A program made the position numbers and the translations under genes. From a virus (lineage: Duplodnaviria; Caudoviricetes), in IMG/VR virus record IMGVR_UViG_3300028591_000094, positions 64,001-128,000 of that record: DNA of 64,000 bases; one strand, 5' to 3'. A model generated the notes under the pieces. The model saw nothing but the letters and a program-made list of their open reading frames with translations, had not been told where the DNA came from and made no database searches. Below, piece by piece: positions 2,853 to 63,712 of this stretch (within the stretch, counting starts at the first letter, position 1; each line of letters opens with the position of its first letter).

Positions 2853-2859
2853 ATAAATA
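2853..2859 (-). promoter_or_regulatory. TATTTAT putative late promoter
   Basis: Recurring motif upstream of structural and head-type genes. Confidence 0.6.
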
Positions 2860-18410: not shown

Positions 18411-20303
18411 TTAATTGTTTGATTTCTTCCCATTAAACATATTCCCGAACTGGTTCATGAAGTCCGCCCCGTTCGCCGACTGAGCACCTCCCTGTCCGTA
18501 TGCCTTGGCGCTGATGCTGTACATACGTTCCTGGACTTCCTTCTCAACCGATTCGAAATTGTCGAAAGATTTTTCCTCTTTCATTTTCTTTATTTCCTCT
18601 TTCTTGTTTTCAAAGAATGTCTTATCATCCTCCGTCACCACATCGGACTTGTCTTTCAACCCGTCAACCAATTGGTCTATTCCGTAAATCAACCCCTCGC
18701 ATTTGTTTGCAATTTCCAGGTCTTTCTGAGTCTTGGCGTCCTCATCGGCATGCGCCTGGGCATCGGCTTTCATGCGCTCGATTTCATCTTCACTCAAGCC
18801 AGACTTGGCTTCAATACGGATGTTATGGGACTTACCTGTTGCTTTGTCAAGTGCACTTACACTCAAAATACCATTGGCATCAATGTCGAATGATACTTCA
18901 ATTTGGGGCACCCCGCGTTTGGCTGGCATTATACCCTCAAGGTTGAACATACCGATTGTCTTGTTGTCGTTTGCCATCGGGCGGCATCCCTGCAAGACGC
19001 GGATTGTTACTTCGGGCTGATTGTCCACCGCCGTGGTAAAAATCTGACTCTTCTTGGTTGGAATGGTTGTGTTGGCTTCAATGAGCGTCGTCATTACACC
19101 GCCCTCGGTCTCGATACCCAAGTTCAAGGGGGTTACATCGAGCAGTAACACGTCGTTGACTTCACCGCTCAACACACCGCCCTGGATAGCGGCACCGATT
19201 GCAACTACCTCGTCTGGATTTACACCCTTGGATGGTGTTTTTCCGAAGAACTGTTCAACAACATTCTGAACCGCAGGGATACGAGTCGAGCCGCCTACAA
19301 GTATCACTTCGTCAATGTCACCATTACTCAACCCCGCATCTGACATAGCTTTCTTGCAGGGCTCCAGTGTTGCCTTGATAAGTTTGTCGCAAATCTGTTC
19401 GAACTTGGCTCGTGTCAGTTTCTTTACAAGGTGTTGTGGAACACCATCTAGAACTGTAATATAAGGTAGATTGATTTCCGTTTCAATTGTTGACGAAAGC
19501 TCAATTTTAGCCTTTTCAGCAGCCTCTTTCAAACGCTGCATTGCCATTGGGTCTTTCTTCAAGTCGATTGACGTGTCATTCTTGAATTCGTCAGCGAGCC
19601 AGTTAATGATTTCCTGGTCAAAATCGTCGCCCCCAAGATGTGTGTCACCGTTAGTTGACAGAACCTCGAACACACCGTCACCGAGGGATAATATAGAAAT
19701 GTCAAACGTACCACCACCGAGGTCAAATACGGCGACATTCATGTCCTTATCAGTCTTGTCAAGACCATAGGCAAGTGCCGCAGCGGTCGGTTCGTTTACA
19801 ATACGCAAGACGTTCAATCCAGCAATCTCGCCAGCCTCCTTGGTTGCTTGGCGCTGAGAGTCACTGAAATAAGCAGGTACTGTGATGACGGCGTCCTTTA
19901 CTTCCTCACCAAGATAATCCTCTGCAGTTTTCTTCATTTTCTGTAAGATTATTGCAGAAATTTCCTGGGGGGTGTAGACTTTTCCATCGATGTCGACGCG
20001 CGCCGAATTATTGTCACCCTTGACAACTTTGTACGACATGTTCTCAATCTCCTTGGTTACCGCATCGAACGGTTCGCCCATGAAGCGCTTGATTGATGAA
20101 ACGGTGTTCTTGGGGTTTGTCACAGCCTGACGCTTGGCTGGGTCACCCACCTTGCGCTCTCCGCTGCTGATAAAGCCCACTACCGAAGGGGTCGTCCTAC
20201 GACCCTCGTTGTTTGCAATGACCACAGGGTCTTTTCCTTCCATGACCGCAACGCACGAATTTGTCGTTCCTAGGTCAATTCCAATTACTTTACTCATTTT
20301 CAT
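18411..20303 (-). CDS. dnaK: Chaperone DnaK (Hsp70)
   Basis: [37 protein letters not shown]. Confidence 0.99.
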
Positions 20304-25193: not shown

Positions 25194-25400
25194 AAAATTT
25201 CTCCAGTGAACTACACCGAAACTAAAGATTTCGGTGCTTCTGACTTCCTTGACAGTTGCGTTCCGAAGAATGTCTTACACCGTCTCCATCAGTGTAATCG
25301 ACCGTCCCAGCCGATATATTTCTTAATCCTTCTTTAAGAATGTTTTTTGCGGCATTGATGTCTCTGTTATGTATTGTTCCGCATTGAGGGCATATCCATT
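25186..25400 (-). ncRNA. Predicted omegaRNA (reRNA) over the tnpB 3' end and right end; 5' boundary approximate
   Basis: Established IS605 architecture; the guide would be the flank TGGAGAAATTTTTGTATATT. Confidence 0.55.
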
Positions 25401-26409
25401 CCCTAACCGACAAATCTTTCACTTTGCCGTTAACATAACCGCATTCATTACAAGTCTGACTTGAAGGATAGAACCTATCTATCTTCACTATCTGTTTATT
25501 GTTCAAGTCAGCCTTGTATTGAAGATATGTTACAAAAGTACCCCAACTTGCGTCTTGAATATGCTTAGCCAACTTATGATTCTTAACCATACCCTTAATG
25601 TTTAGGTCTTCAAGACAAATTATGTCATATTTCCTAATCAAATCGGTTGATACTTTATGTAGATTATCATTACGGGAATTAGCAATCATTTCTTGAAGCT
25701 TGGCAACCTTGAGTCTTTGTTTTTCGTACTCATTACTACCATATTGCTTTCTTGAAAGGTGTTTTTGAGCAATTGCTAACTTTCGTTGATATTTCTTTGT
25801 ATATCTATTATTTTTATATGTTTTTCCATCAGATGTTATTACGAAATCCTTTAAACCAAGGTCAATACCAACTTGTTTGTTTGATTTTGGTAAAGGCTCA
25901 TACATTTGTTCAGTCAACAAACTGACATAATACTTACCAGTAGTTGTAAGTGATATTGTTGCTGAGTTAATCTTACCTTCAACTTGGCGATGCTGTCTGA
26001 CCTTGATACCTTCCTTGAATTTCGGAAAGTACACCTTGCCGTCTTTCAATTCAACAAACTGAGGAACTGAAAAACTGTTTCTGCTCTTTTTGCTTTTGAA
26101 ATTAGGGAATTTGGCATTGCCTCTGAAAAAATTAACATAAGCTGTTTCAAGATGCCTTAATGTATGTTGAAGTGTCTGACTGTTGATTTCTTTCAACCAA
26201 AGATGCTCACCATCTTTTTTCAGTTCAGTTAATTTCTTTGCTTGTTCATAATAATTATCTGATTTATACGTTTCATCATACTGACGTTTCCGTTCAGATA
26301 AGAAATAGTTGTATACAAACCTAACAGACCCAAAATGTTTTGCCAACAAAACTTTTTGTTCCGCATTTGGCTCAAGTCTGAATTTATATGTTTTATACAC
26401 AACCTTCAT
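25222..26409 (-). CDS. tnpB: RNA-guided endonuclease TnpB
   Basis: RuvC triad GIDLG / LEDL / NRDINAA; Zn finger CNECG..CPQCG; N-terminal YKFRLEP..Q. Confidence 0.97.
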
Positions 26410-26483: not shown

Positions 26484-26499
26484 CAACTTTTTTTTGATT

Positions 26500-26904
26500 A
26501 TGCAAAACAATTATGCCAGTAATTCGCACTGTAAGTACTATTTGAAAGTTCACTTAATCTTTGTTACAAAATATAGAAAAAATCTGTTGGTCAATGGATT
26601 GGATACTTGGCTTAAGAGTAAATTTGAATACATTTCAAATGGTTGTGATTTTTCAATTGACATTATGGAAACCGACAAAAATCATATCCACTTACTTGTT
26701 AGTTATCCCCCATCAATTTCAGTATCTTCCATTGTCAGGAAATTGAAACAAAAAAGTACTGTTGACATATGGAAACATTTTCACACCATTATGAGATTGG
26801 AATTTTGGAAAGAGAATACCTTTTGGAGTGATGGCTATTTTGCTTGTTCAATAGGTGAAGCATCACCAGAAACAATCAGAAAGTATATTGAGAACCAAGG
26901 TTAG
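26500..26904 (+). CDS. tnpA: Y1 HUH transposase TnpA
   Basis: HLIFVTKYRK, HIH, FWSDGYF, YIENQ. Confidence 0.97.
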   Translation: MQNNYASNSHCKYYLKVHLIFVTKYRKNLLVNGLDTWLKSKFEYISNGCDFSIDIMETDKNHIHLLVSYPPSISVSSIVRKLKQKSTVDIWKHFHTIMRLEFWKENTFWSDGYFACSIGEASPETIRKYIENQG

Positions 26905-28808: not shown

Positions 28809-28838
28809 TTTGCTTTTTATTATAAATAGTCTCGATTA

Positions 28839-30557
28839 TTATTTTTTACTAGTTTTGTGTCCTGGAAACTTGACAGTTCCGAAATATTTACCACATTTGC
28901 TACATTTGTATATCGGTTCTCCGCAGATGTAGGTTCCAACCTTGGCGCCGCATTCCGTACAGTTTTCAGGTACTACTTCACCTTCGTCATTCCTCACAAC
29001 TTTTCTCTTTTTCTTGCCTTCACTCACATTGCTGTGACCCACTCTATCGTGCATACCACAGGTATCACCAGGAGTTCTGTCGGCTGTCTCGGCATCAATG
29101 AAGGCTGGGGCGTCGAACTCACCAGGTAAACCACCTGTCCCAGAAGCGGTTGCTTCGTTCACCGACTTACCTTTCGGTCGGAAACTTTTCACAAAATTGC
29201 GACAAGACCAAGCCCATTCATAATCGTCCACTTTGGACAATGGAATCCATCTGAATTTGCTGTTTTCGCCGTCGCCCTCGGATGGTTTATAATCACTGGT
29301 TTTACCTGGAAGATAAATCTTGAAGTTGATACCCCAATCCTCTTTGCTGGCTAACACCAAATCTTTCTTGTTTAATTTAATTCCCGATTCCTCCTCACAC
29401 TCTCTGACAGCACCATCCTCTGGCGATTCATATTTATGCCTATGACCCATCGGGGGGTTCATCTTACCACCCTCATCGTCCCAGTCCTTGTTTCTTTTCG
29501 CTGCCAAAACACACCATTCGCCATCATTATTCTTGGCATACAGATACACCGCCGATGATTTTCTGCCATCTTCACCAGTTACAGCTTCATTCAGACCACC
29601 GCCAAACGCCGTCCTAATTGTTTCCTTGACTGTTTTCGTAGAAAGTAGGTAGTCCATCTCAACCGTACTGTACACCCGAGTCATTGTGCCATTATTAAGC
29701 TGCACTTGTTTTGGCATATATCCTAACAAAGCTTTGAACTTCGGGTCGAAAATATCGTGGAGATAAGACAAATCACTTTTTTTAATGTCTGTACCACACT
29801 TCTTGTTTATCTGACCGAGGTATCTGCCGAGAGGGGCATGCGACTGACCATTGAGATAAATGTGACCATAAGCCTCTCTCAACGTATAAGGGTCACCGCC
29901 AACTTTACGTTTTGTACTATGAGAACTCCCCCCTAAAGGCTGGATAAACTCACCACTTCCGAAACCGTTTCCATCAACACCAGAACAACTGGTAGCGCCC
30001 CCTCCATCCTCATCTAGCTGTTTTTCTTTTACCTTTGCATTAAGTGCTTCCGCAGCGTCGTCAAAAAACTTGCCCATGCCATATTTGGGATTAGCTTTGG
30101 TATGAACGCCGCCGCTTATCACACCCATTGTCAGGGGTGACGATTTGATTGCACGTAACTGGTCTTGGTAAGGGTCGTGTTCAAACAACCCCTCGTTTAT
30201 TTTACCCTCCGTCTCAGGAAAAAGCGCATCGTACAATGAATCCAGTTTCTCGTTAAACCCATCCTTCGGCACACTGTATTTGACAATCATTTTTGCTGTA
30301 TGGGGGTTGCCGTCCTGGTCATGGTCGCTTATTGTCATTTTCTTGGTGATAACCTTGCCATCCTCCAGTGACTTGATGAGTTTGTTTTTGTCCAAACCGT
30401 GATGTGTGAATATAATGTCAGGCTCCGTACCAACGGGGTCTTCCAGTAAAGACGCCAGGAACTTTTTGATATTCGCCTTGAATTTGAACTGGGTCATAGC
30501 CAGCATATCCTGTATGGCGTCGGCTTGCGATTCGTTGATTATGATAGTTCTAGCCAT
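28839..30557 (-). CDS. Modular protein with an internal Nudix hydrolase and C-terminal Zn ribbon; probable processed head protein
   Basis: Nudix box GHRHKYESPEDGAVRECEEESGI; CTEC..CSKC; start placed at MARTIIINESQ. Confidence 0.75.
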   Translation of the reverse strand: MARTIIINESQADAIQDMLAMTQFKFKANIKKFLASLLEDPVGTEPDIIFTHHGLDKNKLIKSLEDGKVITKKMTISDHDQDGNPHTAKMIVKYSVPKDGFNEKLDSLYDALFPETEGKINEGLFEHDPYQDQLRAIKSSPLTMGVISGGVHTKANPKYGMGKFFDDAAEALNAKVKEKQLDEDGGGATSCSGVDGNGFGSGEFIQPLGGSSHSTKRKVGGDPYTLREAYGHIYLNGQSHAPLGRYLGQINKKCGTDIKKSDLSYLHDIFDPKFKALLGYMPKQVQLNNGTMTRVYSTVEMDYLLSTKTVKETIRTAFGGGLNEAVTGEDGRKSSAVYLYAKNNDGEWCVLAAKRNKDWDDEGGKMNPPMGHRHKYESPEDGAVRECEEESGIKLNKKDLVLASKEDWGINFKIYLPGKTSDYKPSEGDGENSKFRWIPLSKVDDYEWAWSCRNFVKSFRPKGKSVNEATASGTGGLPGEFDAPAFIDAETADRTPGDTCGMHDRVGHSNVSEGKKKRKVVRNDEGEVVPENCTECGAKVGTYICGEPIYKCSKCGKYFGTVKFPGHKTSKK

Positions 30558-30562
30558 GTTTG

Positions 30563-30817
30563 TTACTTCTTTTTTAACATTGTCGTCCAGAATGACTTCT
30601 TCGCCCACATGTTTTCAATAAACTCCTTGAAAGCGTCAACCACTATATTATGAACCCTTTTCTGAAACTCCCTGCTTTTCGTGTAAGCCTCAATTTCATC
30701 TTCAACCTGTCCCCTGGTCATATCCTCGTTGATATAACTGCTACGCAAACACTCTTTGAAAGCCTCCATTACAAGGTTCTCAATCTCTTTATCTGTTAGT
30801 TTAACGAATTTCTTCAT
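30563..30817 (-). CDS. Small protein with MKKFVKLTDKE leader
   Basis: Start reassigned to follow TATTTAT (30839-30845). Confidence 0.7.
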   Translation of the reverse strand: MKKFVKLTDKEIENLVMEAFKECLRSSYINEDMTRGQVEDEIEAYTKSREFQKRVHNIVVDAFKEFIENMWAKKSFWTTMLKKK

Positions 30818-30857
30818 GCTTAGATATAATATATATTTATAAATAGTTAAACACAAG

Positions 30858-30887
30858 AAAAAAGGAGGCTGAAATTCAGTCTCCTTT
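30858..30887 (-). terminator. Intrinsic terminator
   Basis: AAAGGAGGCTGAA / TTCAGTCTCCTTT. Confidence 0.75.
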
Positions 30888-32187: not shown

Positions 32188-32892
32188 TTAGTATAAGTCC
32201 TTGAATTCAGCATACGATTTATTTGTCATAGCCTTGAACTGAAGTTTCTCAATTCCAGTGTCTTTGATTTGACGTACACGCTCGGGGGTTAGGTTGATTT
32301 CCTTACTGATTTCCTCCAATGTTTGTTCGGGGGCGCCGTTCAATCCGAAATATGCCTGCAGAACTCTGTATTCACGTTTGTTCAAACAGGACAGAAGTTC
32401 GTTGATTGCGTTGTTTCTCCCCTGTGCCTTGCTGACCTCTTCCTCGAAGTCGTAGTTGATGGTGTCAACATTGTTCGTCTCATCATCAAAGATGTAATCT
32501 TCCATGTTGGTGAATTCCTTGTCATACCCACTGCTGTCAATATACGATTTGATTGCCTGGGTAATCCACCAACGAGCATAAGTGATAAACTTGGTTCCCT
32601 TGCTCGGGTCGAATTTTTTCGCGGCGGTCATCAAACCGATATTCCCTTCTGACACCAAGTCATATACAGGAAGACCGCACCAAGCGAATTGCTTGGCAAC
32701 GGTCACTACGTATTTGAGGTTGGCAGTCACGAGTTCATTCAGGGCATCTTCATCACCCTCCTTTATTTTCATGGCAAGTTCGCGTTCCTTTTCACGCGAC
32801 AACCCTTTACTGTGTTTTATCACATCACAATAATTCGCTAAATCAGTCAAATTGCTTTCATCATACATCATTTTTATGAAACATATATTCAC
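32188..32892 (-). CDS. Second phage sigma-70 family factor (short, region 3 largely absent)
   Basis: ANLKYVVTVAKQF, DLVSEGNIGL..A..KFDP.KG.KFITYARWWI, TLEEI....LTPERVRQI. Confidence 0.92.
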   Translation of the reverse strand: MNICFIKMMYDESNLTDLANYCDVIKHSKGLSREKERELAMKIKEGDEDALNELVTANLKYVVTVAKQFAWCGLPVYDLVSEGNIGLMTAAKKFDPSKGTKFITYARWWITQAIKSYIDSSGYDKEFTNMEDYIFDDETNNVDTINYDFEEEVSKAQGRNNAINELLSCLNKREYRVLQAYFGLNGAPEQTLEEISKEINLTPERVRQIKDTGIEKLQFKAMTNKSYAEFKDLY

Positions 32893-32925: not shown

Positions 32926-35346
32926 TCACTTGATTTTTGAAACATTGTTGACTTTTGTAACAGTGATTCTACCCCCATCATGCCAGTCAGCAATATCCTC
33001 GTTGTGAGTTATGTTCAAGATGAAGTCATAGTTAGCCACAATGCGCTTGAATATCTCATGCACGTTCTCGAGATTGCTGGCGGCTGTCTGACCAAGAACC
33101 TCGTCGGTGCAGAGGAAGTTGGGTTTAGACATGGTGCTGATACTCGCCAGAGCTGAACGCAACGCCAGGGATGCCATAGTTTCTTCAAAACCTGAGCCAG
33201 CAATAGCCAAGTCCATCTTGACACCGTCTCGGCTCATATTAATGTTGACGTTGTTCTTGTCATCAATCTCCAACTTTACCTCGAAGTCACAGAGACCGTT
33301 CAATATGCGGGCAATCTCGTTGTTGAGTATTGGAAGGGCTTTCTTCAAGACCAACTTGACAATACCATTCTTGCCCACAAGTTCCTGATAGACCGCCCAA
33401 TTGCGCTTTGTCTTTTCCTCCTCAACCAGTTTGTCTATTTTTTGCTGGCACTCCTTGATTTGCGCGTTGTAACGCTCAATATCTTTCTTATATCCAGCAA
33501 TCTCACCAATCTTGGCGTTTACTATGCTGCGTTCGTTGGCTATGGTTTGGTTGATATTGGTAATGTCACGGTTGACCTGGTTATTGTGTGCTATGTTTTC
33601 CTTGTTCTGTTCAATACTAGCGAGAGTCTCCTTGTTTTTGGTGATTTCAAGGCTCAGTTTGTCAATATTAATCTGCAAAGCATCGCGCTTGTTTTCTATC
33701 TGAGCTTTTCGCGTAACAGTTCTCTGGTTTTCAGCCAGTTCCTTTAATTTAGATTCGCATTCATCCAGAGCTTTCTTGTTAGCGGTATCCCTCTCGACCA
33801 CCTTGCAATCCTCAATCTCTTTTTTGATAGCGTCCATGCTCTTCTGAAGTTCCTGAATATGATGGTCATGAAACTCACCGTCAAGCTTTTGACCGCAAGT
33901 GGGGCATATGCCTTGTTCAAACAGTTTCATAGCCTTGGTTTTCTGCTCTTTCACGGCATTGAAACGTCCTCTAAAATCCGCCTGTTCACTTACTATACAT
34001 TCCTTTTCTTTCTGTAGTCTCTTCTTTTCCGCTTCGACAGTGTTTTTATCGTTCTCATCGTAAGTGACATTCTTTATTTTGTTATATTCAAAGTTGAGCT
34101 GAGCAATTTCACCTTGTTTTACCTGTATTGTTCTTTCGGACTGTTCAATATTGTTCTTAACTGTTGTAACATCAATGGTGTCGAGATTGTCTGCTATCGG
34201 TTTGAGGTCTTTCCGTCTAGCCTCCATTTTTTGTGTCAATTCCTCAATGTTTTTGCTAGCTGTTGCCTGTAACTCCTCTGCCTGGGTTATTTTTGTGTTG
34301 GTATCCTCGATAACTATATTATAGTCGTTGATATTATCTTTCAACTCAGCCTGGTTGTATGTGTTCGACAGCAACTTTGATTGGTAGTTGTTTTTCCACA
34401 GTTTTTTGGCTATCTCTTCCTTTTCCTCGAGAGTTTGCAAACCCAGCCAGCGTGAATACAAACGACCACGGTCTGTCACGCCCATTCTGAGCAGACTGCC
34501 GAGACTATACTGTGTCGCCGAGATAACCAAGTTAAAGTCGTTAACATCGCCGACGGCTTCTTTGATAATATTGTTTGTCTGGGTTGTACTTTCGCCCTCA
34601 CAGTTTTCAATGAGTTCGAGATTGTCGCCAGTCTTCCTGTAATATTCCAGGGTCTGCTTGCATTTGCTCTTCTCGGTACGTTTCTTAAGAGCAGGTCTGG
34701 ATATCGTGCGGCGGATGACATAGTCGATTCCATCAATCTCAATCCCAGCCTCAACAACAACCTCCGTTGCCTCTGGCAGATACTTGTTGAATACACTGTC
34801 AAGCGTTGGGGATTTTTCAGCTTTACCAAACAAGGCAAATCTTAAGAGGTCGATGGCAAATGTGGTTTTACCACCCTGGTTAGCTGGTTCACTGTTCAAA
34901 AGCACAAGACCGTGCAGTTTGGAAAAATCGAAATAGTTATCTGGACCGTAGCTCAGATAGTTCGACCACTTGACATACTTGAACTTATAGTTCTTGTACT
35001 TAGAGTATTGGTCAAAGTTAATATATGAATTAACCTGATTATCGATTACATCCAAATCCTTCCAATCAACATCAGTGATTTTCTGAAGACTTAAATAATC
35101 CTGCATCAGGCTTTTCTGGAACCCAGCATCCTGGATATTATTAATGATGTCTGCAGCCAGTGATATCTTGTTTCCATCCTCGTCAACTGTAACTGGCTTG
35201 AATTCCACGTCCACATGGGTTATCGGCAGTCCGTACTTGGCTGCGATTTCATGTTTTAGTGTCTTGAGTTTCTCTTTGTCGTTGTAAACCTGAGGCATTG
35301 AAACCTCGACGACTATCCTGTCTGTCTTTAAGATGTTGTTTACCAT
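32926..35346 (-). CDS. SbcC/Rad50 (gp46-like) ATPase with N-terminal extension
   Basis: NYLSY, Walker A NQGGKTT, Zn hook CPTCG, SGFE, DEV, ITH. Confidence 0.9.
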   Translation of the reverse strand: MVNNILKTDRIVVEVSMPQVYNDKEKLKTLKHEIAAKYGLPITHVDVEFKPVTVDEDGNKISLAADIINNIQDAGFQKSLMQDYLSLQKITDVDWKDLDVIDNQVNSYINFDQYSKYKNYKFKYVKWSNYLSYGPDNYFDFSKLHGLVLLNSEPANQGGKTTFAIDLLRFALFGKAEKSPTLDSVFNKYLPEATEVVVEAGIEIDGIDYVIRRTISRPALKKRTEKSKCKQTLEYYRKTGDNLELIENCEGESTTQTNNIIKEAVGDVNDFNLVISATQYSLGSLLRMGVTDRGRLYSRWLGLQTLEEKEEIAKKLWKNNYQSKLLSNTYNQAELKDNINDYNIVIEDTNTKITQAEELQATASKNIEELTQKMEARRKDLKPIADNLDTIDVTTVKNNIEQSERTIQVKQGEIAQLNFEYNKIKNVTYDENDKNTVEAEKKRLQKEKECIVSEQADFRGRFNAVKEQKTKAMKLFEQGICPTCGQKLDGEFHDHHIQELQKSMDAIKKEIEDCKVVERDTANKKALDECESKLKELAENQRTVTRKAQIENKRDALQINIDKLSLEITKNKETLASIEQNKENIAHNNQVNRDITNINQTIANERSIVNAKIGEIAGYKKDIERYNAQIKECQQKIDKLVEEEKTKRNWAVYQELVGKNGIVKLVLKKALPILNNEIARILNGLCDFEVKLEIDDKNNVNINMSRDGVKMDLAIAGSGFEETMASLALRSALASISTMSKPNFLCTDEVLGQTAASNLENVHEIFKRIVANYDFILNITHNEDIADWHDGGRITVTKVNNVSKIK

Positions 35347-42422: not shown

Positions 42423-45299
42423 TTATTTCTGTTCAAAATCCTTTAATATAAATATTGTCGTGCTCGGTATCACCTGGGTAAGGTACTGCAGGATTATGCC
42501 ATAGAAATATGTGTTGAACATCGCCTGTGTCGATACACACATTTTCATCTTATTGCGAAGAATCAACACCTTGCTCGGAAGGTAATATTTCTCACTCTCT
42601 GGTTCCTCATCTTCACTAATTCTATTTACAATTTTTTCATCGTAGGTTTCCGTTACATCGAATCTGAATCCGCTCACGGTATAACAATCGTCAAGGTTGG
42701 AATAACCGTAGTGCTCGGCGGCATATTTGAACGGCTCGTTGATATATTCGTAATACTGGTTGCCTAAATCATACGCCATATATCCAACGTGTGGGTTGTT
42801 TCCAAGATTGTTTAATACAATACTATCCATGTATTGGCACAGAAGGTAGTCATCATAAGTGCATCCGATTGTCAACTCACTGCTGTTGCATAAATCATTG
42901 TAGTCTGAAACACTTACACCCCCCAGTTTCAACGGAACGTTCTTCCAGCTGGCGAATAGTTGGGGGTTGTTGGTGTTTATGAGCTTGAAGAAGTGCGATG
43001 TTGTAGTCGGTACAGTCTCAATAAACTCGGTCAGGTCTGACAAATCCATGACATAATATATTGTCTTTTCCCCAACGGTGTAGGCGTTGATTGCTGTGAG
43101 TGCTGTCACGTTCTGGACAACCTCCATGTACGGAATAGTCTCCCTATAATTGTATTTCTCGCCAATAGCGTCACTTACATCGTACTGGCGTATGGAAACC
43201 GATTTACCCCAACCGCCCTTTGTTTCAAACTGGACGTCACCGTCATATATTTTATCCTGTGTGAAAAACGGTACAATGTAATAGTCGTTGTCTATATAAA
43301 GCGTCTTGAGGGGCAGACCAGAAAATTCATCGTCATCATAGTTTATCACTATGTTCTTAGAAGCGTTGTAGTTCTGGCAAAATTCACCATAAGTGAGATA
43401 GGTAATCAAGTCATATGTGTTCACACCTATCTTAATGAACGGCGTACTGTTTTCATCAAAAGTATAGTTTTCGTGCGCCAGATATTCCTCGATGGTGTCA
43501 TATTCATCCGACAAATCAACATAGCCATCGTCTGGGCTTGGGTTATAGTTCGGTGCATAATGGTAATAAATGTCGTCGCGGCGTTTCGGAACAACTGAAT
43601 AATATCTTTCTTCAATCTCAAACTCATCAACACCAAAACCAAACAGCGCAAGCACTTGTTCAACCGCCTGTTTGGTACCCTTTGTTCTAAAAATATCACC
43701 TGAATTTAAGACAAGCTTTCTCATGAAGTTGTTGTCCACACTATTCTGAGTCACCTGCTCGGGGTTAGTCGTATCAAACCACGTCTGATGTTCGGGAAGT
43801 GGTGTTTCTTCGGTGACACCGTCTATAATCCACCTGTTATCCAGTTTAGATAGGTTGTCCACAAACGCAGTTGATAGCGCTATGTTGTCATCGTTGTTCA
43901 GTTTAGTTGAGCAAACCTCCCAGCCGCGCAGTTCCGCTTTGTCGGATAATTCAGCACTCCCAATATTGTTAATACCACCATATGTAATGACATTCTTCAA
44001 GGAAATTGCGTCTATGTAGCGCTTTACATCGTCGAAACTTCTACCCCATATACGCAAAACGTGTTGCATTCTGGTGCCGCCAAGAATATTTTCCTGTTCG
44101 TCCCCCTCCACATATTCTCTTGTGTATGTCCAGTCAAACGTTTTAACGGCCTCGTGAGTCATGTTTCGCCAGATATTGTCACACCATAGTGAATCCTGCA
44201 GACTACCAAGATTGTATAAATCGTTAACATAGTTTTCAAATCCAACAGTGTCGATTAATACACAATAACCGTCACTCGGCCATACATAAGCTCGTTCGGC
44301 ATAGTAGTAGCCTGGACTGTTGTTTGGCATTTGGATGGGGGTTACTAGTCTGGCATTGTATTGAGGCATGGTTCTTCTGTTTAACAAAACTACCTCAAAA
44401 CCATCCAAACTGTTGAAGTAGTTTTCTATCAGTTCATTGTTGGGTTGTAACGTTAGCCCTTCAATGTCGGTACACCACAGCACACCTTCTTCCATCTTGA
44501 GTCCGTAGATGTGCCCAGTAACCGTTGTTGGTTCTAGTGGAGGCGTATCACCCACAGTGATACAGGTATCAGCCTCATAAGTAAACGTAATGTCATAAAT
44601 TACAGTATATGATGGGTCGCATTCGTCGTAAGGTTTAATCCACACATCCCAGCTGGTTATTGGATTGCCTTTGATGAGATAACTACCCCATGACATTGGC
44701 AGGTTTCGCAACTGGTTGTCGTATTCGCCAAAAGTAACATTCTGTCTGTAAAAATCCAGGCTGAATGGATTTCGCATTGCAAATATACTGACGTTGTCAG
44801 GCACCTGGGTATATGTTGCAGCGTAACTGTGGTGACCGTCGGTGATAATTCTGTCGAGGTACATGTATGCACCCTCGTTTTCGATATAACGTGAAACTCC
44901 AGACGTTGTCGCCCACGCTCTCCCTGGAAACCATTTGATTATATTTTCAATGGAGGCTCTGATTAATTCCAGCGCCGACCCGTAGTAAGCGTAGTCCCTC
45001 ACATCATTGCTTGGGCTCAGATTTGAAATATTGTTAACTTCATCGTTCACCGTCGGGGATAAATCCTCGATAGTATAAGCGTCGCTCCACGGCGGAGTGT
45101 TATTACGTTTTTTGGTTCCTGGTAGGTTGTTGTCCGTAAACAGGAAATTCGAGTCGGCGTATATCTTGCGCTTACCCGACTCGATTACATGTCGCTCACC
45201 CAGCGTACCCCAATCCCTCTCGAAAATAACTCCTTCGTTAGTGTCCTGGTGTAGCTTACGGTGAAGATAGTTGCTATATGTTTTACTGTATTTTCCCAT
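42423..45299 (-). CDS. Large structural protein (baseplate-associated)
   Basis: 958 aa; AYYGSA; IFRTKGTKQAVE.VL.LFG is a baseplate-wedge-type motif. Confidence 0.6.
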   Translation of the reverse strand: MGKYSKTYSNYLHRKLHQDTNEGVIFERDWGTLGERHVIESGKRKIYADSNFLFTDNNLPGTKKRNNTPPWSDAYTIEDLSPTVNDEVNNISNLSPSNDVRDYAYYGSALELIRASIENIIKWFPGRAWATTSGVSRYIENEGAYMYLDRIITDGHHSYAATYTQVPDNVSIFAMRNPFSLDFYRQNVTFGEYDNQLRNLPMSWGSYLIKGNPITSWDVWIKPYDECDPSYTVIYDITFTYEADTCITVGDTPPLEPTTVTGHIYGLKMEEGVLWCTDIEGLTLQPNNELIENYFNSLDGFEVVLLNRRTMPQYNARLVTPIQMPNNSPGYYYAERAYVWPSDGYCVLIDTVGFENYVNDLYNLGSLQDSLWCDNIWRNMTHEAVKTFDWTYTREYVEGDEQENILGGTRMQHVLRIWGRSFDDVKRYIDAISLKNVITYGGINNIGSAELSDKAELRGWEVCSTKLNNDDNIALSTAFVDNLSKLDNRWIIDGVTEETPLPEHQTWFDTTNPEQVTQNSVDNNFMRKLVLNSGDIFRTKGTKQAVEQVLALFGFGVDEFEIEERYYSVVPKRRDDIYYHYAPNYNPSPDDGYVDLSDEYDTIEEYLAHENYTFDENSTPFIKIGVNTYDLITYLTYGEFCQNYNASKNIVINYDDDEFSGLPLKTLYIDNDYYIVPFFTQDKIYDGDVQFETKGGWGKSVSIRQYDVSDAIGEKYNYRETIPYMEVVQNVTALTAINAYTVGEKTIYYVMDLSDLTEFIETVPTTTSHFFKLINTNNPQLFASWKNVPLKLGGVSVSDYNDLCNSSELTIGCTYDDYLLCQYMDSIVLNNLGNNPHVGYMAYDLGNQYYEYINEPFKYAAEHYGYSNLDDCYTVSGFRFDVTETYDEKIVNRISEDEEPESEKYYLPSKVLILRNKMKMCVSTQAMFNTYFYGIILQYLTQVIPSTTIFILKDFEQK

Positions 45300-46222
45300 T
45301 ACGAATTTTTAATTTCATCCAAATCAAGACTTCTGTCAATGTTATTCGACTTATCAAGTTTAGCTTCCGCAATATTCTTTCTATGATAGTTGTCCTTCAC
45401 GGTCGAGTATTCCATCTGTTTGTAGATTTCTCCGTCGAAGTTGTATGTGGTAACCCTACCGTTCTCAAGGTTACGTATTTGTTCACCCTCAAGCATGTAA
45501 CTGACTGTTTCAATGTCATGTGCTGTTATCTCCACCTCAACACAAACTGGGTCGAACTTCGTGTTCTTGATTATAATCGTCTGGTTTGGTGTACCTATGT
45601 ACGGTCTTGCGTTACTCTTGAATGACGGGGCGGTTGACGGTGTCAGTGTTATAAACGACAACGAACCGCTTGAATTGTACCTATAACCGTTGGAGTTGGT
45701 GTTGCCAGATGTTAAGTTCTGGGAAACGGGCTCACAGAAGCCGTTGCTGGTTACAATTCTGAAATATTCCTGTCTCATATTTCCGCCAGCGTCAGCATTA
45801 TAATCCATGTACTCAATACGATAACCAGTTAAATTATCATCACCGAAGAGTGTGCGGTATTCAGGTATGTCGTTCATGTCAACCACAATGCCTCTTATGT
45901 CGGGATATGCAGCCAACGCACCCACATCTTTGATGGTGCAGGTAATTTCTTTCGGCACAATGTAGATTGTATAGATACCCACGTTTCCGAAAATTGTTGC
46001 AGGAAGTTTGAGGGTGTACATACCAGGCAATCTCATATCCCCATCCTCGTGCGGGTCAAGGGTTGCGGGACTAAGAATTGATGACGGGTCGCTTATTGGG
46101 CGAAATCCAGGATAAGCTGAGCTGTAGCTGCTTCTTGTCGGCCTGTAGTAGTAATATATGTCAACATCCGTAGCTGGATTGAAGATTGCTTGTTTGACTG
46201 TTCCGTATGTATTGTTTGCCAT
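45299..46222 (-). CDS. Structural protein
   Basis: 307 aa; TATTTAT at 46243-46249. Confidence 0.6.
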   Translation of the reverse strand: MANNTYGTVKQAIFNPATDVDIYYYYRPTRSSYSSAYPGFRPISDPSSILSPATLDPHEDGDMRLPGMYTLKLPATIFGNVGIYTIYIVPKEITCTIKDVGALAAYPDIRGIVVDMNDIPEYRTLFGDDNLTGYRIEYMDYNADAGGNMRQEYFRIVTSNGFCEPVSQNLTSGNTNSNGYRYNSSGSLSFITLTPSTAPSFKSNARPYIGTPNQTIIIKNTKFDPVCVEVEITAHDIETVSYMLEGEQIRNLENGRVTTYNFDGEIYKQMEYSTVKDNYHRKNIAEAKLDKSNNIDRSLDLDEIKNS

Positions 46223-46283
46223 GTAATTATAATTCTTTTATAATAAATATAACAAACCGAAAAATCAAAAGCAATTTTCACTA

Positions 46284-48035
46284 TTATGATTGGGATTGAA
46301 TGTTAAAATATCCGTTATTTGAATAATTCTCCAAATCCGAAAATGTTTTCACTTCACCGAGTTTCATATGTCTTTCCCAGGCAGCGGCATTACCCCTGCC
46401 AACAAAAATATCAGCCTTGACGAAAGGAGGATAACTGATGCCTGTCAAATAATCCACCTTTGTTATTGGCGCCACCAACGCATCACTGGTATTTATTCCT
46501 GTTGTGTTGTATGCACTAATATTTGCTTGATAATTGGCAGGTAAGCCGTTAACTAGCGCTGTTGTTGTCACCATTGTTGAAGATGTGTCAAAAGCACCTT
46601 TCATAAACAAGTGGTCTGCATCAGGAGTGTGGCGATTGATGAAATCCTCGAAATAACCGTCGGAAATCAACTGTGCAATATCACCGTCCTCTGGATAATA
46701 GAAAGTTTCGGTGTATTCGATACCATGAAAATCCTCATCATTGTATCGGTACTCATCGTAGCAATATCTGGTGTTGTTGTCGTCGTCGGTTGTTATCTGT
46801 ACGAGTTTTGCCTTCAAATTGGCACCGATTATATAATGAAAAGTAACAGTGTGTTCGTTTTCATCATATTCTATATTGTTTATGATATCACCATAAGCCA
46901 TTAAATGGGTCTCATACTCACCTAAAGCCTGACTGCGCTGATAACCCTCCTGCATGACAATATTCCCTAGTGCATCGGTTGTTGTCTCATAATGACCCAG
47001 GTTTCCTATTTTGTAATACCATAACCAATCCTCACCAGTTGGAGGAATTTCGATATCGCCAGCCGTATTGAGATATGTCGCTTGCTTTCTGAATCCAGTC
47101 AACTTGCTGTCTGATGTTCCTTCAATCTCAAATGTTTCATCAACATCTTCAAAAGTTTCTGTTAATAATTCAAAATGGTCGTCATCAAACTCGTATTCCT
47201 CATATACTACGTTCCATTTACCAATGGTACCAACATCAACCAACTCCCCGTCCTGATATTCATATACACCCGTACAAACGTAGGTTCTGTTATTGTATGT
47301 AACCATGTCGCCATGGAAATATCTGTATTCAGGCTCCCAGAAATTAACGTAAGTTGACAGATATCCTAAGTCGTTTTCAGTTGAAACTACGCAGAAGTTC
47401 ATGCCAATCGATAAAGCGTCAGGTTCGGCGAGTGTCAGCAAATAAGCCGACCGTTCCGCGGCCTCGGCGCACTTGCTCTGGTAATAGTCGCGCATGGTGT
47501 CGCCACCCATTCTCTCGTACTTGGTTACCAGACATTCCAACTCACAGTTGATGTCACCCGTAGCCTCCTTAAACTCCAAGTATTGGGCTACCATAATACT
47601 AATTTGCTGGTATTCATTATATAATCGAGCCACTTCCGCTAGATAATTGTATTGAGGCACCAAATCACAGGTTTCCCAATCAATATCCGCATCAATATAA
47701 AACTTTCCAATACAATATTCCATAAACGGAATGAAGGTGTCGTCATTGGCAGTGTGCCCGTCATACCTCTTGTAATACTCCATCATGGTTCTGTATGTAC
47801 AAACATCGCTACCTTCCAACGGAGTTGACAATAATCCTGTATCATCATACACAACCAGATTGACATCCTCAGGCAAACGTATTGCCGACACAATGTGACC
47901 ATAACATCCAACGCTCGAATCCGCCGCGCTGTGTACGTGGCAAATATCATTATCGTCAAACTCCAGGTAAGGAAACAGTCCTGGTGTCCTAGATTTCAGT
48001 TCTTCTTGTCCTATGTTAACCTTGATTGTATTCAT
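46284..48035 (-). CDS. Structural protein with CBM5/12-like motif
   Basis: WEPEYRYFHGDMVTYNNRTYVC. Confidence 0.6.
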   Translation of the reverse strand: MNTIKVNIGQEELKSRTPGLFPYLEFDDNDICHVHSAADSSVGCYGHIVSAIRLPEDVNLVVYDDTGLLSTPLEGSDVCTYRTMMEYYKRYDGHTANDDTFIPFMEYCIGKFYIDADIDWETCDLVPQYNYLAEVARLYNEYQQISIMVAQYLEFKEATGDINCELECLVTKYERMGGDTMRDYYQSKCAEAAERSAYLLTLAEPDALSIGMNFCVVSTENDLGYLSTYVNFWEPEYRYFHGDMVTYNNRTYVCTGVYEYQDGELVDVGTIGKWNVVYEEYEFDDDHFELLTETFEDVDETFEIEGTSDSKLTGFRKQATYLNTAGDIEIPPTGEDWLWYYKIGNLGHYETTTDALGNIVMQEGYQRSQALGEYETHLMAYGDIINNIEYDENEHTVTFHYIIGANLKAKLVQITTDDDNNTRYCYDEYRYNDEDFHGIEYTETFYYPEDGDIAQLISDGYFEDFINRHTPDADHLFMKGAFDTSSTMVTTTALVNGLPANYQANISAYNTTGINTSDALVAPITKVDYLTGISYPPFVKADIFVGRGNAAAWERHMKLGEVKTFSDLENYSNNGYFNIQSQS

Positions 48036-48036
48036 C

Positions 48037-59979: not shown

Positions 59980-60777
59980 TTATTCCTGTGTCTGGTTCCA
60001 GTTTACTTGACCGCCTGTGCTTGTACTGGCGTTCTGCGACCAGCCTTGGTTGGGCTGAGCCTGTTTATTCTGAGGGGTCTGCTGGTGTGCCTGCTGTTGC
60101 TGAGTTTGTTGCTGGGGCTGTTGGTTTTGCTGACCCTGTTGACCACCCTGTTGGTTCTGTCCACCCATGAGACCTCCAATAATATTTTTACCTGTCTGGA
60201 GAATGTTTCCAAAGGGGTTACCGCCTTGCTGACCGTTACCGCCTTGCTGACCGTTACCGCCAAGCAATCCACCGAGGACGTTGCCAATTCCACCACCGTT
60301 GGAACCGCCGCCCAAGCTACCGATGCCAAGCAGTTGACCAATCATTGACGGGTTAAGGTTTCCGAGTATGCCACCGAGCATGCCTTCATCGATACTTTCG
60401 TTCATAGCACCGTTCATACCGCCGCCCTGTGCAGCCTGTTTCTTTAGTTTAATACTGTTCTGAATTTCGTTACCAAGTGCCATTGCAAACAGTTTCGACG
60501 TAAGAACTCTGTACAAAACACCGTTCTTGTCGAGTTTGAGCAGATTAGCAATCAAATCGACAGCCTTTTTAATCAGTCCGCTGCCAAGTAAACCACCAAT
60601 CATACCGAGACCGCCTTCGTCAACCTCTTCGTTGAGACCGTTGCAGGCAGCGCCGCATTCATTGGTTCCACACTCGTTGGTGCCGCATTCAGCCATTGAT
60701 TCGTTCATAATACGTATGACCGATTCGCTGATTAAGCTATGTAATTCCTTTTCAGTTAGTTTAACAACTTTTTTCAT
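59980..60777 (-). CDS. Gly/Gln-rich protein with MKKVVKLTEKEL leader
   Basis: Multiple xxE sites, glycine-zipper segments, Q-rich tail; TATTTAT at 60802-60808. Confidence 0.75.
   Translation of the reverse strand: MKKVVKLTEKELHSLISESVIRIMNESMAECGTNECGTNECGAACNGLNEEVDEGGLGMIGGLLGSGLIKKAVDLIANLLKLDKNGVLYRVLTSKLFAMALGNEIQNSIKLKKQAAQGGGMNGAMNESIDEGMLGGILGNLNPSMIGQLLGIGSLGGGSNGGGIGNVLGGLLGGNGQQGGNGQQGGNPFGNILQTGKNIIGGLMGGQNQQGGQQGQQNQQPQQQTQQQQAHQQTPQNKQAQPNQGWSQNASTSTGGQVNWNQTQE
60217..60261. repeat. 18-bp tandem repeat x2.5 (GGNGQQ)
   Basis: GTTACCGCCTTGCTGACC repeated. Confidence 0.85.
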
Positions 60778-60832
60778 TCTTTATGCAATTGTTTTATTAT
60801 TATAAATATAAATATCATTTTGTTTGAAATTG

Positions 60833-63284: not shown

Positions 63285-63671
63285 TTAATCTGCAACACAG
63301 TTATCAACCAGGTTGTTCCAACTCTGCATAACACCCTTTACATAATGGTTGAAATTAGCGTTGTTACATTGGTTTGCCGCCTGTAACAGAGCTGTCTTAA
63401 ATTGTTGTGCCGCTTGTTCCATATTACAGTTCGCCATTGCCTCGGATACGTTTACACGTTCCTCTTGTGATAGTCCGTTACCAGTGTTAGGTGTGTTGGC
63501 AGTATTTTCGCTATTGCTGTTATTACTATTGCTGGTTGGCTGTACATTGCTCGGAGCGACCGCTGTCGAATGAAGCAGTTTCAGGAATCCCTCGTTGAGT
63601 TTCTGTTCCTCTAAAGCCTTCGTAATAATGCGGCGTATATCCTGTTCGGTTAAATGTATAACTTTTTTCAT
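63285..63671 (-). CDS. Small protein with MKKVIHLTEQDI leader
   Basis: Leader followed by LNEG; TATTTAT at 63691-63697. Confidence 0.75.
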   Translation of the reverse strand: MKKVIHLTEQDIRRIITKALEEQKLNEGFLKLLHSTAVAPSNVQPTSNSNNSNSENTANTPNTGNGLSQEERVNVSEAMANCNMEQAAQQFKTALLQAANQCNNANFNHYVKGVMQSWNNLVDNCVAD

Positions 63672-63712
63672 CTCTTTTATTATATAATTTATAAATAAAT
63701 AGAGATAAAAAC

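What the first reader, a model, noticed from the sequence alone, without database searches (positions are those of the whole stretch)
28839..30557. Apparent polyprotein with a complete Nudix enzyme bracketed by NE-A sites
Seen: modules are separated by Gly-rich linkers with INES, INEG, LDED, LREA, LNEA, VNEA and VSEG. The Nudix domain (about 29165-29585) begins right after GGGLNEA and ends right before SVNEA, and a CxxC-CxxC Zn ribbon follows VSEG. Inference: one gene is cut during head maturation into several small proteins, including a free Nudix hydrolase that could destroy defence signals or alarmones on injection. This is the clearest single example of the cargo system.
Basis: partly seen in the sequence, partly recalled or inferred. 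Interest (0 to 1): 0.72.

Follow-up and report, generated by a model that had tools for sequence, protein, structure and literature searches.

The report
Protease-jointed phage cargo polyprotein with Nudix
A giant uncultured gut or rumen phage with a T4-type head encodes a 572-residue chain of small swappable modules, one a complete Nudix enzyme, joined by floppy linkers that end in the T4-type head protease's cutting motif, so the chain is probably loaded into the capsid and cut apart, though nobody has measured this.

Summary
ORF 28839-30557 (minus strand, 572 aa) carries all seven listed sites. Its Nudix domain has an intact Nudix box and sits exactly between GGGLNE|A and SVNE|A. A CxxC...CxxC ribbon follows VSE|G.

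AlphaFold puts the internal sites in disordered linkers, not in folded domains. About 580 homologues reuse the modules in other combinations, and their breakpoints pile up on the Glu-ending sites (residues 122, 228, 324, 468, 513). Stand-alone Nudix and Zn-ribbon homologues carry a roughly 25-residue leader ending in LNE just before the module.

A syntenic relative encodes a T4 gp21-type head protease with its catalytic motifs and a gp23-type capsid protein with a conserved [LI]xE|A at about residue 60.

The best reading (about 0.6) is a head-targeted cargo polyprotein cut by the prohead protease. This is a new variant of T4 internal-protein/Alt processing and of "polyvalent proteins". Packaging, cleavage, injection and the Nudix substrate are all unmeasured, and this 45%-complete contig lacks the head genes. 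The anti-defence role proposed for the Nudix is speculation.

The scan has already reported the same kind of polyprotein in at least eight other genomes.

The parts
28839..30557 (-). Whole CDS, 572 aa: the modular 'polyprotein'
   Evidence: The ATG start is supported by homologue N-termini.
30531..30557 (-). Residues 1-9, MARTIIINE: a leader resembling a capsid-targeting sequence. It has a basic start and a hydrophobic run, with I at P3 and E at P1.
   Evidence: Among 53 homologues with this spacing, position 7 is I in 51 and position 9 is E in all 53. The same leader heads other modules (L004 1417-aa protein, P0023, P0053, P0055). It is coil in the AF2 model.
30192..30530 (-). Residues 10-122, conserved N-domain (winged-helix-like), ending in KINE|G
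   Evidence: pLDDT 87-98. Weak winged-helix matches: VIA Z 5.0 to IscR, Foldseek E about 0.1 to TFIIE, MarR and PadR. It occurs alone or internally in well over 100 representative proteins. 27 BLAST HSPs end at residue 122.
30009..30191 (-). Residues 123-183, optional helical module 2, ending in QLDE|D
   Evidence: Present or absent as a clean indel between KINE and GGGATSC in the alignment. Low-confidence helices.
29874..30008 (-). Residues 184-228, Gly-rich linker peptide A. It holds the conserved motif GGGATSCSGVDGNGFGSGEF-QPL, then a basic stretch, then GGDPYTLRE|A.
   Evidence: Disordered (pLDDT 31-40). The motif is found in 32 distinct variants. GG[ND]PYTLxE is followed by at least 6 different module types.
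29586..29873 (-). Residues 229-324, module 3 (alpha/beta, possibly Bro-N / P22 antirepressor-N-like), ending in GGGLNE|A
   Evidence: pLDDT 58-78. A stand-alone homologue exists (P0107, 122 aa). Atlas structural neighbours are Bro-N and P22_AR_N at TM 0.52-0.60, a lead only.
29154..29585 (-). Residues 325-468, Nudix hydrolase module with a complete Nudix box (residues 371-393, window 29379-29447), ending in SVNE|A
   Evidence: Pfam PF00293 E 1.6e-10. pLDDT 92-98. Foldseek probability 1.0 to Nudix structures. The box was read directly from the sequence.
29019..29153 (-). Residues 469-513, conserved disordered linker peptide B (ATASGTGGLPGEF...DRTPGDTCGMHDRVGHSNVSE|G)
   Evidence: pLDDT 32-40. 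MHDRVG-SN[LVI]xE is conserved in 18 homologues, with E in 17 of 18. It travels with or without the Zn ribbon.
28842..29018 (-). Residues 514-572, basic stretch plus CxxC...CxxC zinc-ribbon module
   Evidence: Cys 533/536/552/555 read directly. Beta hairpins at 539-552. Stand-alone forms carry their own leader (P0128, P0184). 51-58% identical to stretches in Lak megaphages.
30563..30817 (-). Upstream 84-aa ORF, starting MKKFVKLTDKEIENLVMEAF...YINE|D. Its stop lies 5 nt before the polyprotein's ATG, so the two are probably co-transcribed. It bears a leader.
30838..30845 (-). TATTTATA motif 21 nt upstream of the small ORF: a candidate phage promoter element
   Evidence: TATTTAT occurs 40 times in the window against 15.9 expected, with 0 of 100 shuffles reaching 40. 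It lies upstream of several leader-bearing and structural genes.
30856..30887 (-). Hairpin plus U-run after the preceding gene, terminator-like. It marks the start of a new transcription unit.
   Evidence: RNA fold -12.8 kcal/mol, z -2.75. The consensus terminator scan did not call it.

Best explanation
The gene encodes a head-targeted cargo polyprotein of a giant phage with a T4-type head.

Shown:
- It is a chain of independently folding, independently shuffled modules: a winged-helix-like N-domain, a helical module, a Bro-N-like module, a catalytically complete Nudix hydrolase and a basic zinc ribbon.
- The modules are joined by disordered Gly-rich linkers, each ending in [L/I/V]-x-Glu.
- The clade has a T4 gp21-type serine prohead protease.

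Inferred:
- The short N-terminal leader (MARTIIINE), perhaps together with the N-domain, directs the chain into the prohead core during assembly, as T4's capsid-targeting sequence does.
- When the prohead protease is activated it cuts after the linker Glu residues. [L/I/V]-x-E sites inside folded domains are protected.
- The head then holds separate small proteins of about 6-16 kDa and about 4.5-kDa linker peptides, including a free Nudix enzyme of about 16 kDa.
- These leave with the DNA at infection.
- The same joints let evolution add, drop and swap modules without disturbing targeting or processing.

The Nudix substrate is unknown. An NAD/ADP-ribose-related or RNA 5'-end substrate is a guess. 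It rests only on other family members that combine this Nudix with ADP-ribosyltransferase or nucleotidyltransferase modules.
For: 1. Domain boundaries match the sites. AF2 folds 1-118, 242-319, 329-464 and 519-560. The disordered segments 121-129, 179-241, 320-328 and 465-518 contain INE122, LDE183, LRE228, LNE324, VNE468 and VSE513.

2. Homologues swap modules at these Glu residues. GG[ND]PYTLxE is followed by at least 6 different modules.

3. Stand-alone Nudix homologues (P0083, P0117, P0162) and Zn-ribbon homologues (P0128, P0184) carry a roughly 25-residue leader (MKKIxIxE...LNE|) directly before the module.

4. The 9-residue leader is independent of what follows. It heads unrelated modules, and it is kept before the N-domain in the middle of the G001 protein, just after a VSE| site.

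5. The relative G001 is syntenic at this locus: sigma factor 67%, 217-aa protein 75% and 283-aa protein 58% identical.
- It encodes Peptidase_S77 at E 3e-24, above the curated cut-off.
- That protease is 31% identical to a T4-type gp21, with the H, S and D motifs conserved.
- It encodes a gp23 capsid protein at E 2e-59 and an acidic scaffold carrying LNE|A and LSE|A.
- Five small leader-bearing ORFs lie in or beside its head gene block.

6. Capsid proteins of the clade conserve HL[LI][RKY]E|AT at about residue 60, with P2 variable. This position is comparable to T4 gp23's 65-residue propeptide (PMC9026906).

7. T4 precedent:
- A roughly 10-residue targeting sequence loads IPI-III and Alt into the head. 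Targeting depends mainly on its residues 4 and 7, and processing on residues 8 and 10, which are P3 and P1.
- Foreign proteins fused to it are packaged, processed and injected (PMC9026906).
- T4, phiKZ, 201phi2-1 and SPN3US proteases all cut after Glu (PMC5694885).

8. A PHROG of portal proteins matches the Nudix region (phrog_15528, E 2.4e-4), which hints that virion-associated Nudix domains exist.
Against: - No experiment or proteome exists. Packaging, cleavage and injection are all inferred.
- The window's own contig (168 kb, about 45% complete) has no protease or capsid gene. The link runs through a relative.
- The gene lies next to a sigma factor and TnpB genes, not in a head gene block.
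- The leader and first helix may simply be part of the N-domain fold (pLDDT about 87), and the leader also occurs internally in G001.
- The linkers are conserved along their whole length, not only at P3 and P1, so they may have another role.
- 7 of the 15 [LIVMF]xE sites lie in folded or helical parts and would have to be protected by folding.
- Known T4 cargo is trimmed at its ends, not diced into several functional proteins.
- V at P3 is not the classical T4 preference (L/I, from my own knowledge of Black, Showe and Steven 1994).
Confidence: 0.6

Rival explanations
1. It is an unprocessed multidomain 'polyvalent' effector. The chain works, and may be packaged, as one polypeptide. The linkers are flexible tethers. 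The conserved Glu-ending motifs mark module ends or recombination joints rather than cleavage sites.
For: - Polyvalent proteins of 2-15 domains are common in phages. Some, such as the N4 virion RNA polymerase, are packaged unprocessed (PMC5512222).
- Family members share modules with ART-PolyVal proteins.
- Both linker peptides are conserved over about 45 residues, more than a P3-P1 site needs.
Against: - Stand-alone modules carry a leader ending in LNE exactly where the linker Glu lies in the fused forms.
- The clade has a Glu-specific protease family.
- The capsid protein shows the same [LI]xE|A at the expected maturation position.
- No peptidase domain of its own was found by Pfam.
Confidence: 0.25
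2. It is a cytoplasmic, non-virion enzyme or regulator: a Nudix hydrolase tethered to nucleic-acid-binding modules (winged helix, Bro-N-like, zinc ribbon), for example for RNA decapping, for nucleotide clean-up at phage DNA, or as an NrtR-like regulator. The N-terminal 'leader' is then only the first strand of the N-domain.
For: - The N-domain shows weak winged-helix similarity.
- Module 3 resembles Bro-N / P22 antirepressor-N.
- An NrtR Nudix domain is among the Foldseek hits.
- The gene sits beside a sigma factor rather than head genes.
Against: - NrtR has the opposite domain order with adjacent domains. Here the Nudix box is fully catalytic and lies about 200 residues from the winged helix, across disordered linkers.
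- Free shuffling of modules, including between neighbouring genes (Zn ribbon on the next gene in G001), does not suit a co-adapted regulator.
- The leader is shared with small ORFs in and beside the head gene block of G001.
Confidence: 0.15

Closest known systems
Phage T4 internal head proteins IPI, IPII, IPIII and Alt: capsid-targeting sequence plus gp21 processing (PMC9026906, PMC9958956)
   Same: - Short N-terminal peptide with hydrophobic-x-Glu at its end.
- T4-type (S77) prohead protease and gp23-type capsid in the clade.
- The cargo includes an enzyme (Alt is an ADP-ribosyltransferase).
- The cargo is variable and non-essential in character.
   Different: - No sequence homology to the T4 proteins.
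- T4 cargo is one protein per gene, trimmed at its ends. Here 5-7 modules are strung in one gene with an internal site at every joint, and the modules are reshuffled among relatives.
- The leader differs in sequence, and a longer form of about 25 residues exists.
- Nothing has been measured.
Inner-body and ejection proteins of giant phages phiKZ, 201phi2-1 and SPN3US, processed by gp21-related proteases (PMC5694885, PMC7411985)
   Same: - Giant myoviruses with many head-internal proteins.
- Cutting after Glu at a three-residue motif.
- Propeptides thought to target proteins into the prohead.
- Extra sites that break propeptides into small pieces.
   Different: - Their motif is S/A/G-x-E or A-x-E; here it is L/I/V-x-E, as in T4.
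- Their long propeptides (about 110-130 residues) are discarded. Here every piece is a conserved module.
- The protein families are different.
Polyvalent proteins of phages and conjugative elements (Iyer, Burroughs, Anand, de Souza and Aravind 2017, PMC5512222)
   Same: - Multi-domain, rapidly reshuffled chains of effector-like domains.
- Predicted to travel with the DNA.
- Relatives of this protein carry ART-PolyVal and nucleotidyltransferase domains.
- Processing into pieces was proposed for some.
   Different: - That paper attributes processing mainly to peptidase domains inside the protein (MPTase). Here no peptidase module is present, and the joints fit the head protease.
- NUDIX is named only once in that paper.
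- The conserved joint peptides and leader are not described there, as far as my term search of the paper showed.
Nudix hydrolase superfamily (PF00293; MutT, RppH, ADP-ribose pyrophosphatases, Ap4A hydrolases, Dcp2)
   Same: Same fold and a complete GX5EX7REUXEEXGU box.
   Different: - No subfamily assignment. The best solved relative by sequence has E 0.003 (3grn), and all NCBIfam hits are far below their cut-offs.
- It is embedded in a polyprotein between two Glu-ending joints.

Membership tests
Nudix hydrolase superfamily (PF00293) | Nudix fold (alpha/beta/alpha sandwich) | tested here: met
   Pfam E 1.6e-10, 41.5 bits against a cut-off of 21.1. AF2 pLDDT 92-98. Foldseek probability 1.0, TM by target 0.6-0.7, to several Nudix structures.
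Nudix hydrolase superfamily (PF00293) | Nudix box GX5EX7REUXEEXGU with the catalytic Glu residues | tested here: met
   G371-HRHKY-E377-SPEDGAV-R385-E386-C-E-E389-E390-S-G392-I393, read from the translation.
Nudix hydrolase superfamily (PF00293) | Hydrolysis of a nucleoside-diphosphate-X substrate; which substrate | not testable with these tools
   No equivalog-level match.
T4-type capsid-targeted, gp21-processed head cargo | The phage encodes a gp21-type (Peptidase S77) prohead protease with a His/Ser/Asp triad | tested here: inconclusive
   Not found on the window's own 45%-complete contig. Found in the syntenic relative G001 at E 3e-24, above the cut-off, 31% identical to a T4-type gp21, with DHP, GVSSRG and D motifs aligned.
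T4-type capsid-targeted, gp21-processed head cargo | N-terminal targeting peptide of about 10 residues ending hydrophobic-x-Glu | tested here: met
   MARTIIINE. I7 and E9 are conserved in 51 and 53 of 53 homologues. This is a match of pattern only, not of sequence, to the T4 targeting peptide.
T4-type capsid-targeted, gp21-processed head cargo | Candidate cleavage sites accessible, outside folded domains | tested here: met
   All six internal joint sites lie in pLDDT<50 segments.
T4-type capsid-targeted, gp21-processed head cargo | Protein present in virions and cut at these sites | not testable with these tools
   The phage is uncultured and no proteome is at hand.
T4-type capsid-targeted, gp21-processed head cargo | Sequence homology to IPI, IPII, IPIII or Alt | tested here: inconclusive
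   Pfam and PHROGs gave no such family for this protein. No direct comparison with the T4 proteins was run.
Polyvalent proteins (Iyer et al. 2017) | Two to fifteen unrelated domains in one chain, encoded by a phage or conjugative element, with mosaic evolution | tested here: met
   Five folded modules. Extensive reshuffling among about 580 homologues.
Polyvalent proteins (Iyer et al. 2017) | Carries signature domains of that collection (ART-PolyVal, MPTase, DdrB-ParB and others) | tested here: not met
   None in this protein. ART-PolyVal occurs in relatives that share its Nudix or Zn-ribbon module (P0067, P0146).
NrtR-like Nudix/winged-helix regulators | N-terminal Nudix domain directly followed by a C-terminal winged helix | tested here: not met
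   The order is reversed, and the two are separated by about 200 residues of other modules and disordered linkers.

The most novel reading that the evidence does not exclude
The Glu-ending joints are a general 'plug-and-cut' grammar of a very large clade of gut and rumen T4-type giant phages. Any module given a leader or a joint is loaded into the head, cut free by the head protease and injected. Under this reading the Nudix would be the first enzyme known to be delivered ready-made by a virion in order to hydrolyse a host nucleotide immune signal or NAD-derived messenger in the first seconds of infection. The two conserved linker peptides of about 45 residues would be released as functional peptides in their own right.
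Probability: 0.15. Interest if true: 0.8.

Novelty: new variant of a known kind. Interest (0 to 1): 0.55.

Why it matters
If the cutting is real, giant T4-type phages of the gut and rumen build their injected arsenal combinatorially. One targeting peptide and one protease rule would let unrelated enzymes be strung together, packed, separated and delivered before any phage gene is expressed.

That would extend the T4 capsid-targeting principle from single proteins to polyproteins. It would explain the mosaic cargo genes seen in metagenomic giant phages. It would also give a sequence rule for predicting virion-delivered effectors, and natural joints for engineering protein delivery by phages.

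The clade is large: at least 7,962 capsid-protein relatives were found. The Nudix module is a concrete, easily assayed candidate for an early-acting enzyme.

Tried and rejected
- Linkers as mimics of the capsid maturation site. By eye, VNE|ATASGTGGLPGEF resembles the capsid's LRE|ATASDNSGSFETVVFPL and the scaffold's VDE|AASSTSGRHGGFG. An HMM built from 32 linker variants did not hit the capsid protein at all, and hit the scaffold only at E 6.2. I dropped the idea.
- Placing the capsid cleavage site against T4 gp23. The full-length MAFFT alignment was unusable because of a large insertion. The N-terminal alignment put T4's GSFLTE|A over GSFET, not over LLRE|A. E60 and E71 therefore both remain candidates.
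- Head genes on the window's own contig. There is no Peptidase_S77 or gp23 there, and PHROG scans of the remaining large ORFs found replication, lysis and sheath genes only.
- Close relatives in the phage GenBank collection. Only the Zn ribbon matched, in Lak megaphages.
- IMG/VR scans. The whole protein found nothing, and the first alignment was too diverse to use. A narrower alignment found one relative.
- Fold of the N-domain. Foldseek found nothing at E <= 0.001, and VIA gave Z <= 5.0, all winged-helix-like. This is a suggestion only.
- Nudix subfamily. No usable assignment.
- Consensus terminator and promoter scan around the gene. It gave no more than chance. The hairpin was supported only by folding.
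- Literature. I found no paper describing prohead-protease-jointed cargo polyproteins or a virion-delivered Nudix.
- Complex prediction. Not used, because protease-substrate pairs are a poor use of that test.
Full report
**What is there**

The finding lies on the minus strand. The ATG at 30557 opens a 572-residue frame that ends at 28839. A GTG at 30608 would lengthen it, but homologues all begin M-x-K-T-I-I-I-N-E. An 84-residue ORF (30563-30817) stops 5 nt before the ATG, so 30557 is the start.

Pfam finds one domain, NUDIX, at residues 335-454 (E 1.6e-10). The Nudix box is complete: G371-x5-E377-x7-R385-E386-C-x-E389-E390-x-G392-I393. Foldseek matches many solved Nudix enzymes at probability 1.0. 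The C-terminus has C533-x2-C536 and C552-x2-C555.

**Where it comes from**

The window is the middle of a 168,082-base IMG/VR virus record that CheckV rates at 45% complete. The whole genome would then be roughly 370 kb.

The fragment carries:
- T4-type baseplate wedge and sheath genes
- DnaK, RNA ligase, SbcCD-like genes and ribonucleotide reductase
- a sigma factor and TnpB genes

It has no capsid or protease gene.

**Domain boundaries against the sites**

AlphaFold2, run with a 56-sequence alignment, gives these confident domains (a second model of residues 1-324 agrees):

| Residues | Module | pLDDT |
|---|---|---|
| 1-118 | N-domain | 87-98 |
| 242-319 | module 3 | 58-78 |
| 329-464 | Nudix | 92-98 |
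| 519-560 | Zn ribbon | 52-77 |

The segments below pLDDT 50 include 121-129, 179-241, 320-328 and 465-518. All six internal joint sites fall in these segments.

It is not met. Of the 8 [LIVMF]xE[AGSD] sites, 6 are in disordered segments that make up 30% of the chain. One is in the N-terminal coil and one in a helix. My binomial estimate is about 0.01.

**Do homologues swap modules at these sites? Yes.**

A word-indexed search found 57 relatives of 315-972 residues, on contigs up to 402 kb. An exhaustive HMMER search found 582. Each module occurs on its own and in many other combinations:
- the N-domain, alone in proteins of 110-200 residues or at about 200-320 in proteins of about 400 residues
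- module 3, alone (P0107)
- Nudix, alone or with WG repeats, a nucleotidyltransferase or ART-PolyVal
- the Zn ribbon, at either end or in the middle of other proteins

BLAST breakpoints in query coordinates pile up as follows:

| Query residue | HSP boundaries |
|---|---|
| 122 | 27 ends |
| 228/229 | 20 ends |
| 322-324 | 37 starts |
| 466-470 | 24 ends, 14 starts |
| 509-512 | 8 starts |

The upstream joint peptide GG[ND]PYTLxE is followed by at least six different downstream modules (AVTG..., KVVR..., SQES/NQES..., GKRV..., AYGH...). The junction therefore lies exactly after the Glu.

Stand-alone modules are the most telling case. Nudix-only proteins begin, for example, MSRNLLIERVVSEVLNE|VLLSSTCTYLFC. 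Zn-ribbon-only proteins begin MKKIRISENKLRNIISRAINDVLNE|QKKKKRDKVIKNDEGE. A leader ending in LNE stands where the fused form has a linker ending in xxE.

**The link to a head protease**

One IMG/VR relative (G001, 244,784 bases, 69% complete) was reached through the N-domain. Its locus is syntenic with the window:
- sigma factor, 67% identical
- the 217-residue protein, 75%
- the 283-residue protein, 58%

At the position of our gene it has a 1,417-residue chain:
- leader
- an unknown module
- KKVSE|TTNKNRIIIINE| followed by the N-domain
- module 2
- linker A, ending in GGNPYTLNE|
- a second copy of the unknown module
- WG repeats
- SILSE|AVTG followed by the Nudix module

The next gene (658 residues) ends with linker B and the Zn ribbon. 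Modules therefore move even between neighbouring genes.

G001 encodes a Peptidase_S77 protein (E 3e-24, above Pfam's cut-off). It is 31% identical to a T4-type gp21, with the DHP, GVSSRG and Asp motifs aligned. G001 also encodes:
- a gp23-type capsid protein (E 2e-59; more than 2,500 T4-like phage records match it)
- an acidic scaffold containing QLNE|A and QLSE|A
- five small ORFs in or beside the head gene block that begin MKKIIKLNE, MAKVIKINE, MKKTIFLTE, MKKVIRLTE and MKKVVRLKE

Across 65 distinct capsid N-termini of the clade, HL[LI][RKY]E|AT[AS][SA]DNSGSFETVVFPL is conserved at about residue 60, with P2 variable. The clade has at least 7,962 capsid relatives.

What is published for T4 and other giant phages:
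- The gp23 propeptide is 65 residues long.
- The cargo proteins IPI-III and Alt carry a targeting peptide of about 10 residues. Processing depends on its residues 8 and 10, that is P3 and P1.
- Foreign proteins fused to that peptide are packaged, processed and injected (PMC9026906).
- T4, phiKZ, 201phi2-1 and SPN3US proteases all cut after Glu (PMC5694885).

The classical T4 rule L/I-x-E is from my own knowledge (Black, Showe and Steven 1994).

**Best explanation**

The most likely reading, at about 0.6, is a head-targeted cargo polyprotein that the prohead protease cuts at the linker Glu residues. The products would be:
- a 12.7-kDa winged-helix-like protein
- a 6.7-kDa helical piece
- a 10.8-kDa basic module (pI 9.2)
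- a 16.4-kDa Nudix enzyme
- a 6.5-kDa basic zinc ribbon (pI 9.5)
- two peptides of about 4.5 kDa

Shown here: the modular architecture, disordered joints, swapping at the joints, leaders on stand-alone modules, and a T4-type protease and capsid in a syntenic relative. Inferred: targeting, cleavage, retention in the head, injection and any function.

**Module identities beyond the Nudix are weak**

- N-domain: VIA Z 5.0 (IscR; rmsd 3.4 over 71 residues). Foldseek E about 0.1-1 to TFIIE, MarR, PadR and DnaD-N. All are winged helices, and there is a sub-threshold DVNP hit.
- Module 3: Atlas neighbours Bro-N and P22 antirepressor-N at TM 0.52-0.60. This is a lead only.
- Nudix subfamily: none assignable.

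**Rivals**

An unprocessed polyvalent-type chain (0.25) is favoured by the long conserved linker peptides and by the N4 RNA polymerase precedent (PMC5512222). It does not explain the leaders on stand-alone modules.

A cytoplasmic Nudix tethered to nucleic-acid-binding domains (0.15) fits the gene's neighbours. It does not fit the free shuffling, or the leader shared with ORFs in and beside the head gene block. The NrtR architecture was tested and is not met.

**Comparison and novelty**

The closest known systems are:
- T4 IPI-III and Alt
- the processed ejection proteins of phiKZ-like phages
- Aravind's polyvalent proteins

The differences are the stringing of several conserved modules in one gene, a protease-type joint at every boundary, and the use of those joints as swap points. 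My two literature searches found no description of this. I rate it a new variant of a known kind.

The scan's own notes show the same pattern reported in at least eight other genomes, and on this window as a whole. I did not check those notes and they are not independent evidence. They do mean this gene is one instance of a recurring theme rather than a singular discovery.

The suggestion that the Nudix destroys defence signals or alarmones remains speculation.

Noticed in passing
window 29874-30008 and 29019-29153 (-): Both 'linkers' are conserved peptides of about 45 residues, not random spacers. They share an opening motif, A-T-[AS]-x-[ST]-G...G-E-F-x-x-P-x-[FG]. Linker A's GATSC...SG[QE]F-QP[LM]F follows the N-domain in 32 distinct variants. 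Linker B contains an invariant DRTPGDT[CM]GMHDRVG. Their function is unknown.
   Followed up: partly
window 30563-30817 (-); also 59980-60777 (-), 63285-63671 (-), and genome 32529-33200 (+), which lies outside the window: Small ORFs begin with a shared leader of about 25 residues, MKK[VFT]V[KH]LT[ED]...[LIVM]NE|. The same leader heads small ORFs in and beside the head gene block of relative G001 (L008). 5 ORFs on the contig start with the core motif, against 0.8 expected.
   Followed up: partly
window, 40 sites, e.g. 30839-30845, 28822-28828, 60802-60814, 63691-63701, 52811-52817, 2853-2859 (-): TATTTAT(A) is over-represented (40 against 15.9 expected). It often lies just upstream of minus-strand gene starts, so it is a candidate phage promoter element. 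Its timing class is unknown.
   Followed up: partly
L004 6258-10511 (+) and 10515-12491 (+) (relative G001): The syntenic slot holds a 1,417-residue polyprotein. It has two copies of an unknown module of about 300-560 residues, WG repeats and the Nudix. A neighbouring 658-residue protein carries linker B and the Zn ribbon. An internal copy of the leader (NRIIIINE) is kept in front of the N-domain.
   Followed up: partly
window 28842-29018 (-): The Zn-ribbon module is 51-58% identical to stretches in all 15 Lak megaphage records (Prevotella hosts). These were the only hits in the phage GenBank collection.
   Followed up: no
window 25222-26409 (-) and 26494-26904 (+): By eye, a TnpB-like 395-residue ORF and an IS200-type Y1 transposase-like 136-residue ORF lie about 2 kb downstream of the polyprotein cluster.
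   Followed up: no
window 18411-20303 (-), 32188-32892 (-), 32926-35346 (-): The phage encodes a DnaK (57-63% identical to annotated DnaK genes). By eye it also encodes a sigma-70-family factor and an SbcC/Rad50-like 806-residue protein.
   Followed up: no
window 42423-59642 (-): A run of very large ORFs (958, 307, 583, 571, 1019 and 2271 residues) lies next to the baseplate genes. The five that were scanned (all but the 307-residue one) have no PHROG match.
   Followed up: no
L008 6301-8364 (-) (relative G001): The gp23-type capsid protein is 687 residues, against 521 in a T4-type phage. It carries a large insertion after the N-arm.
   Followed up: no
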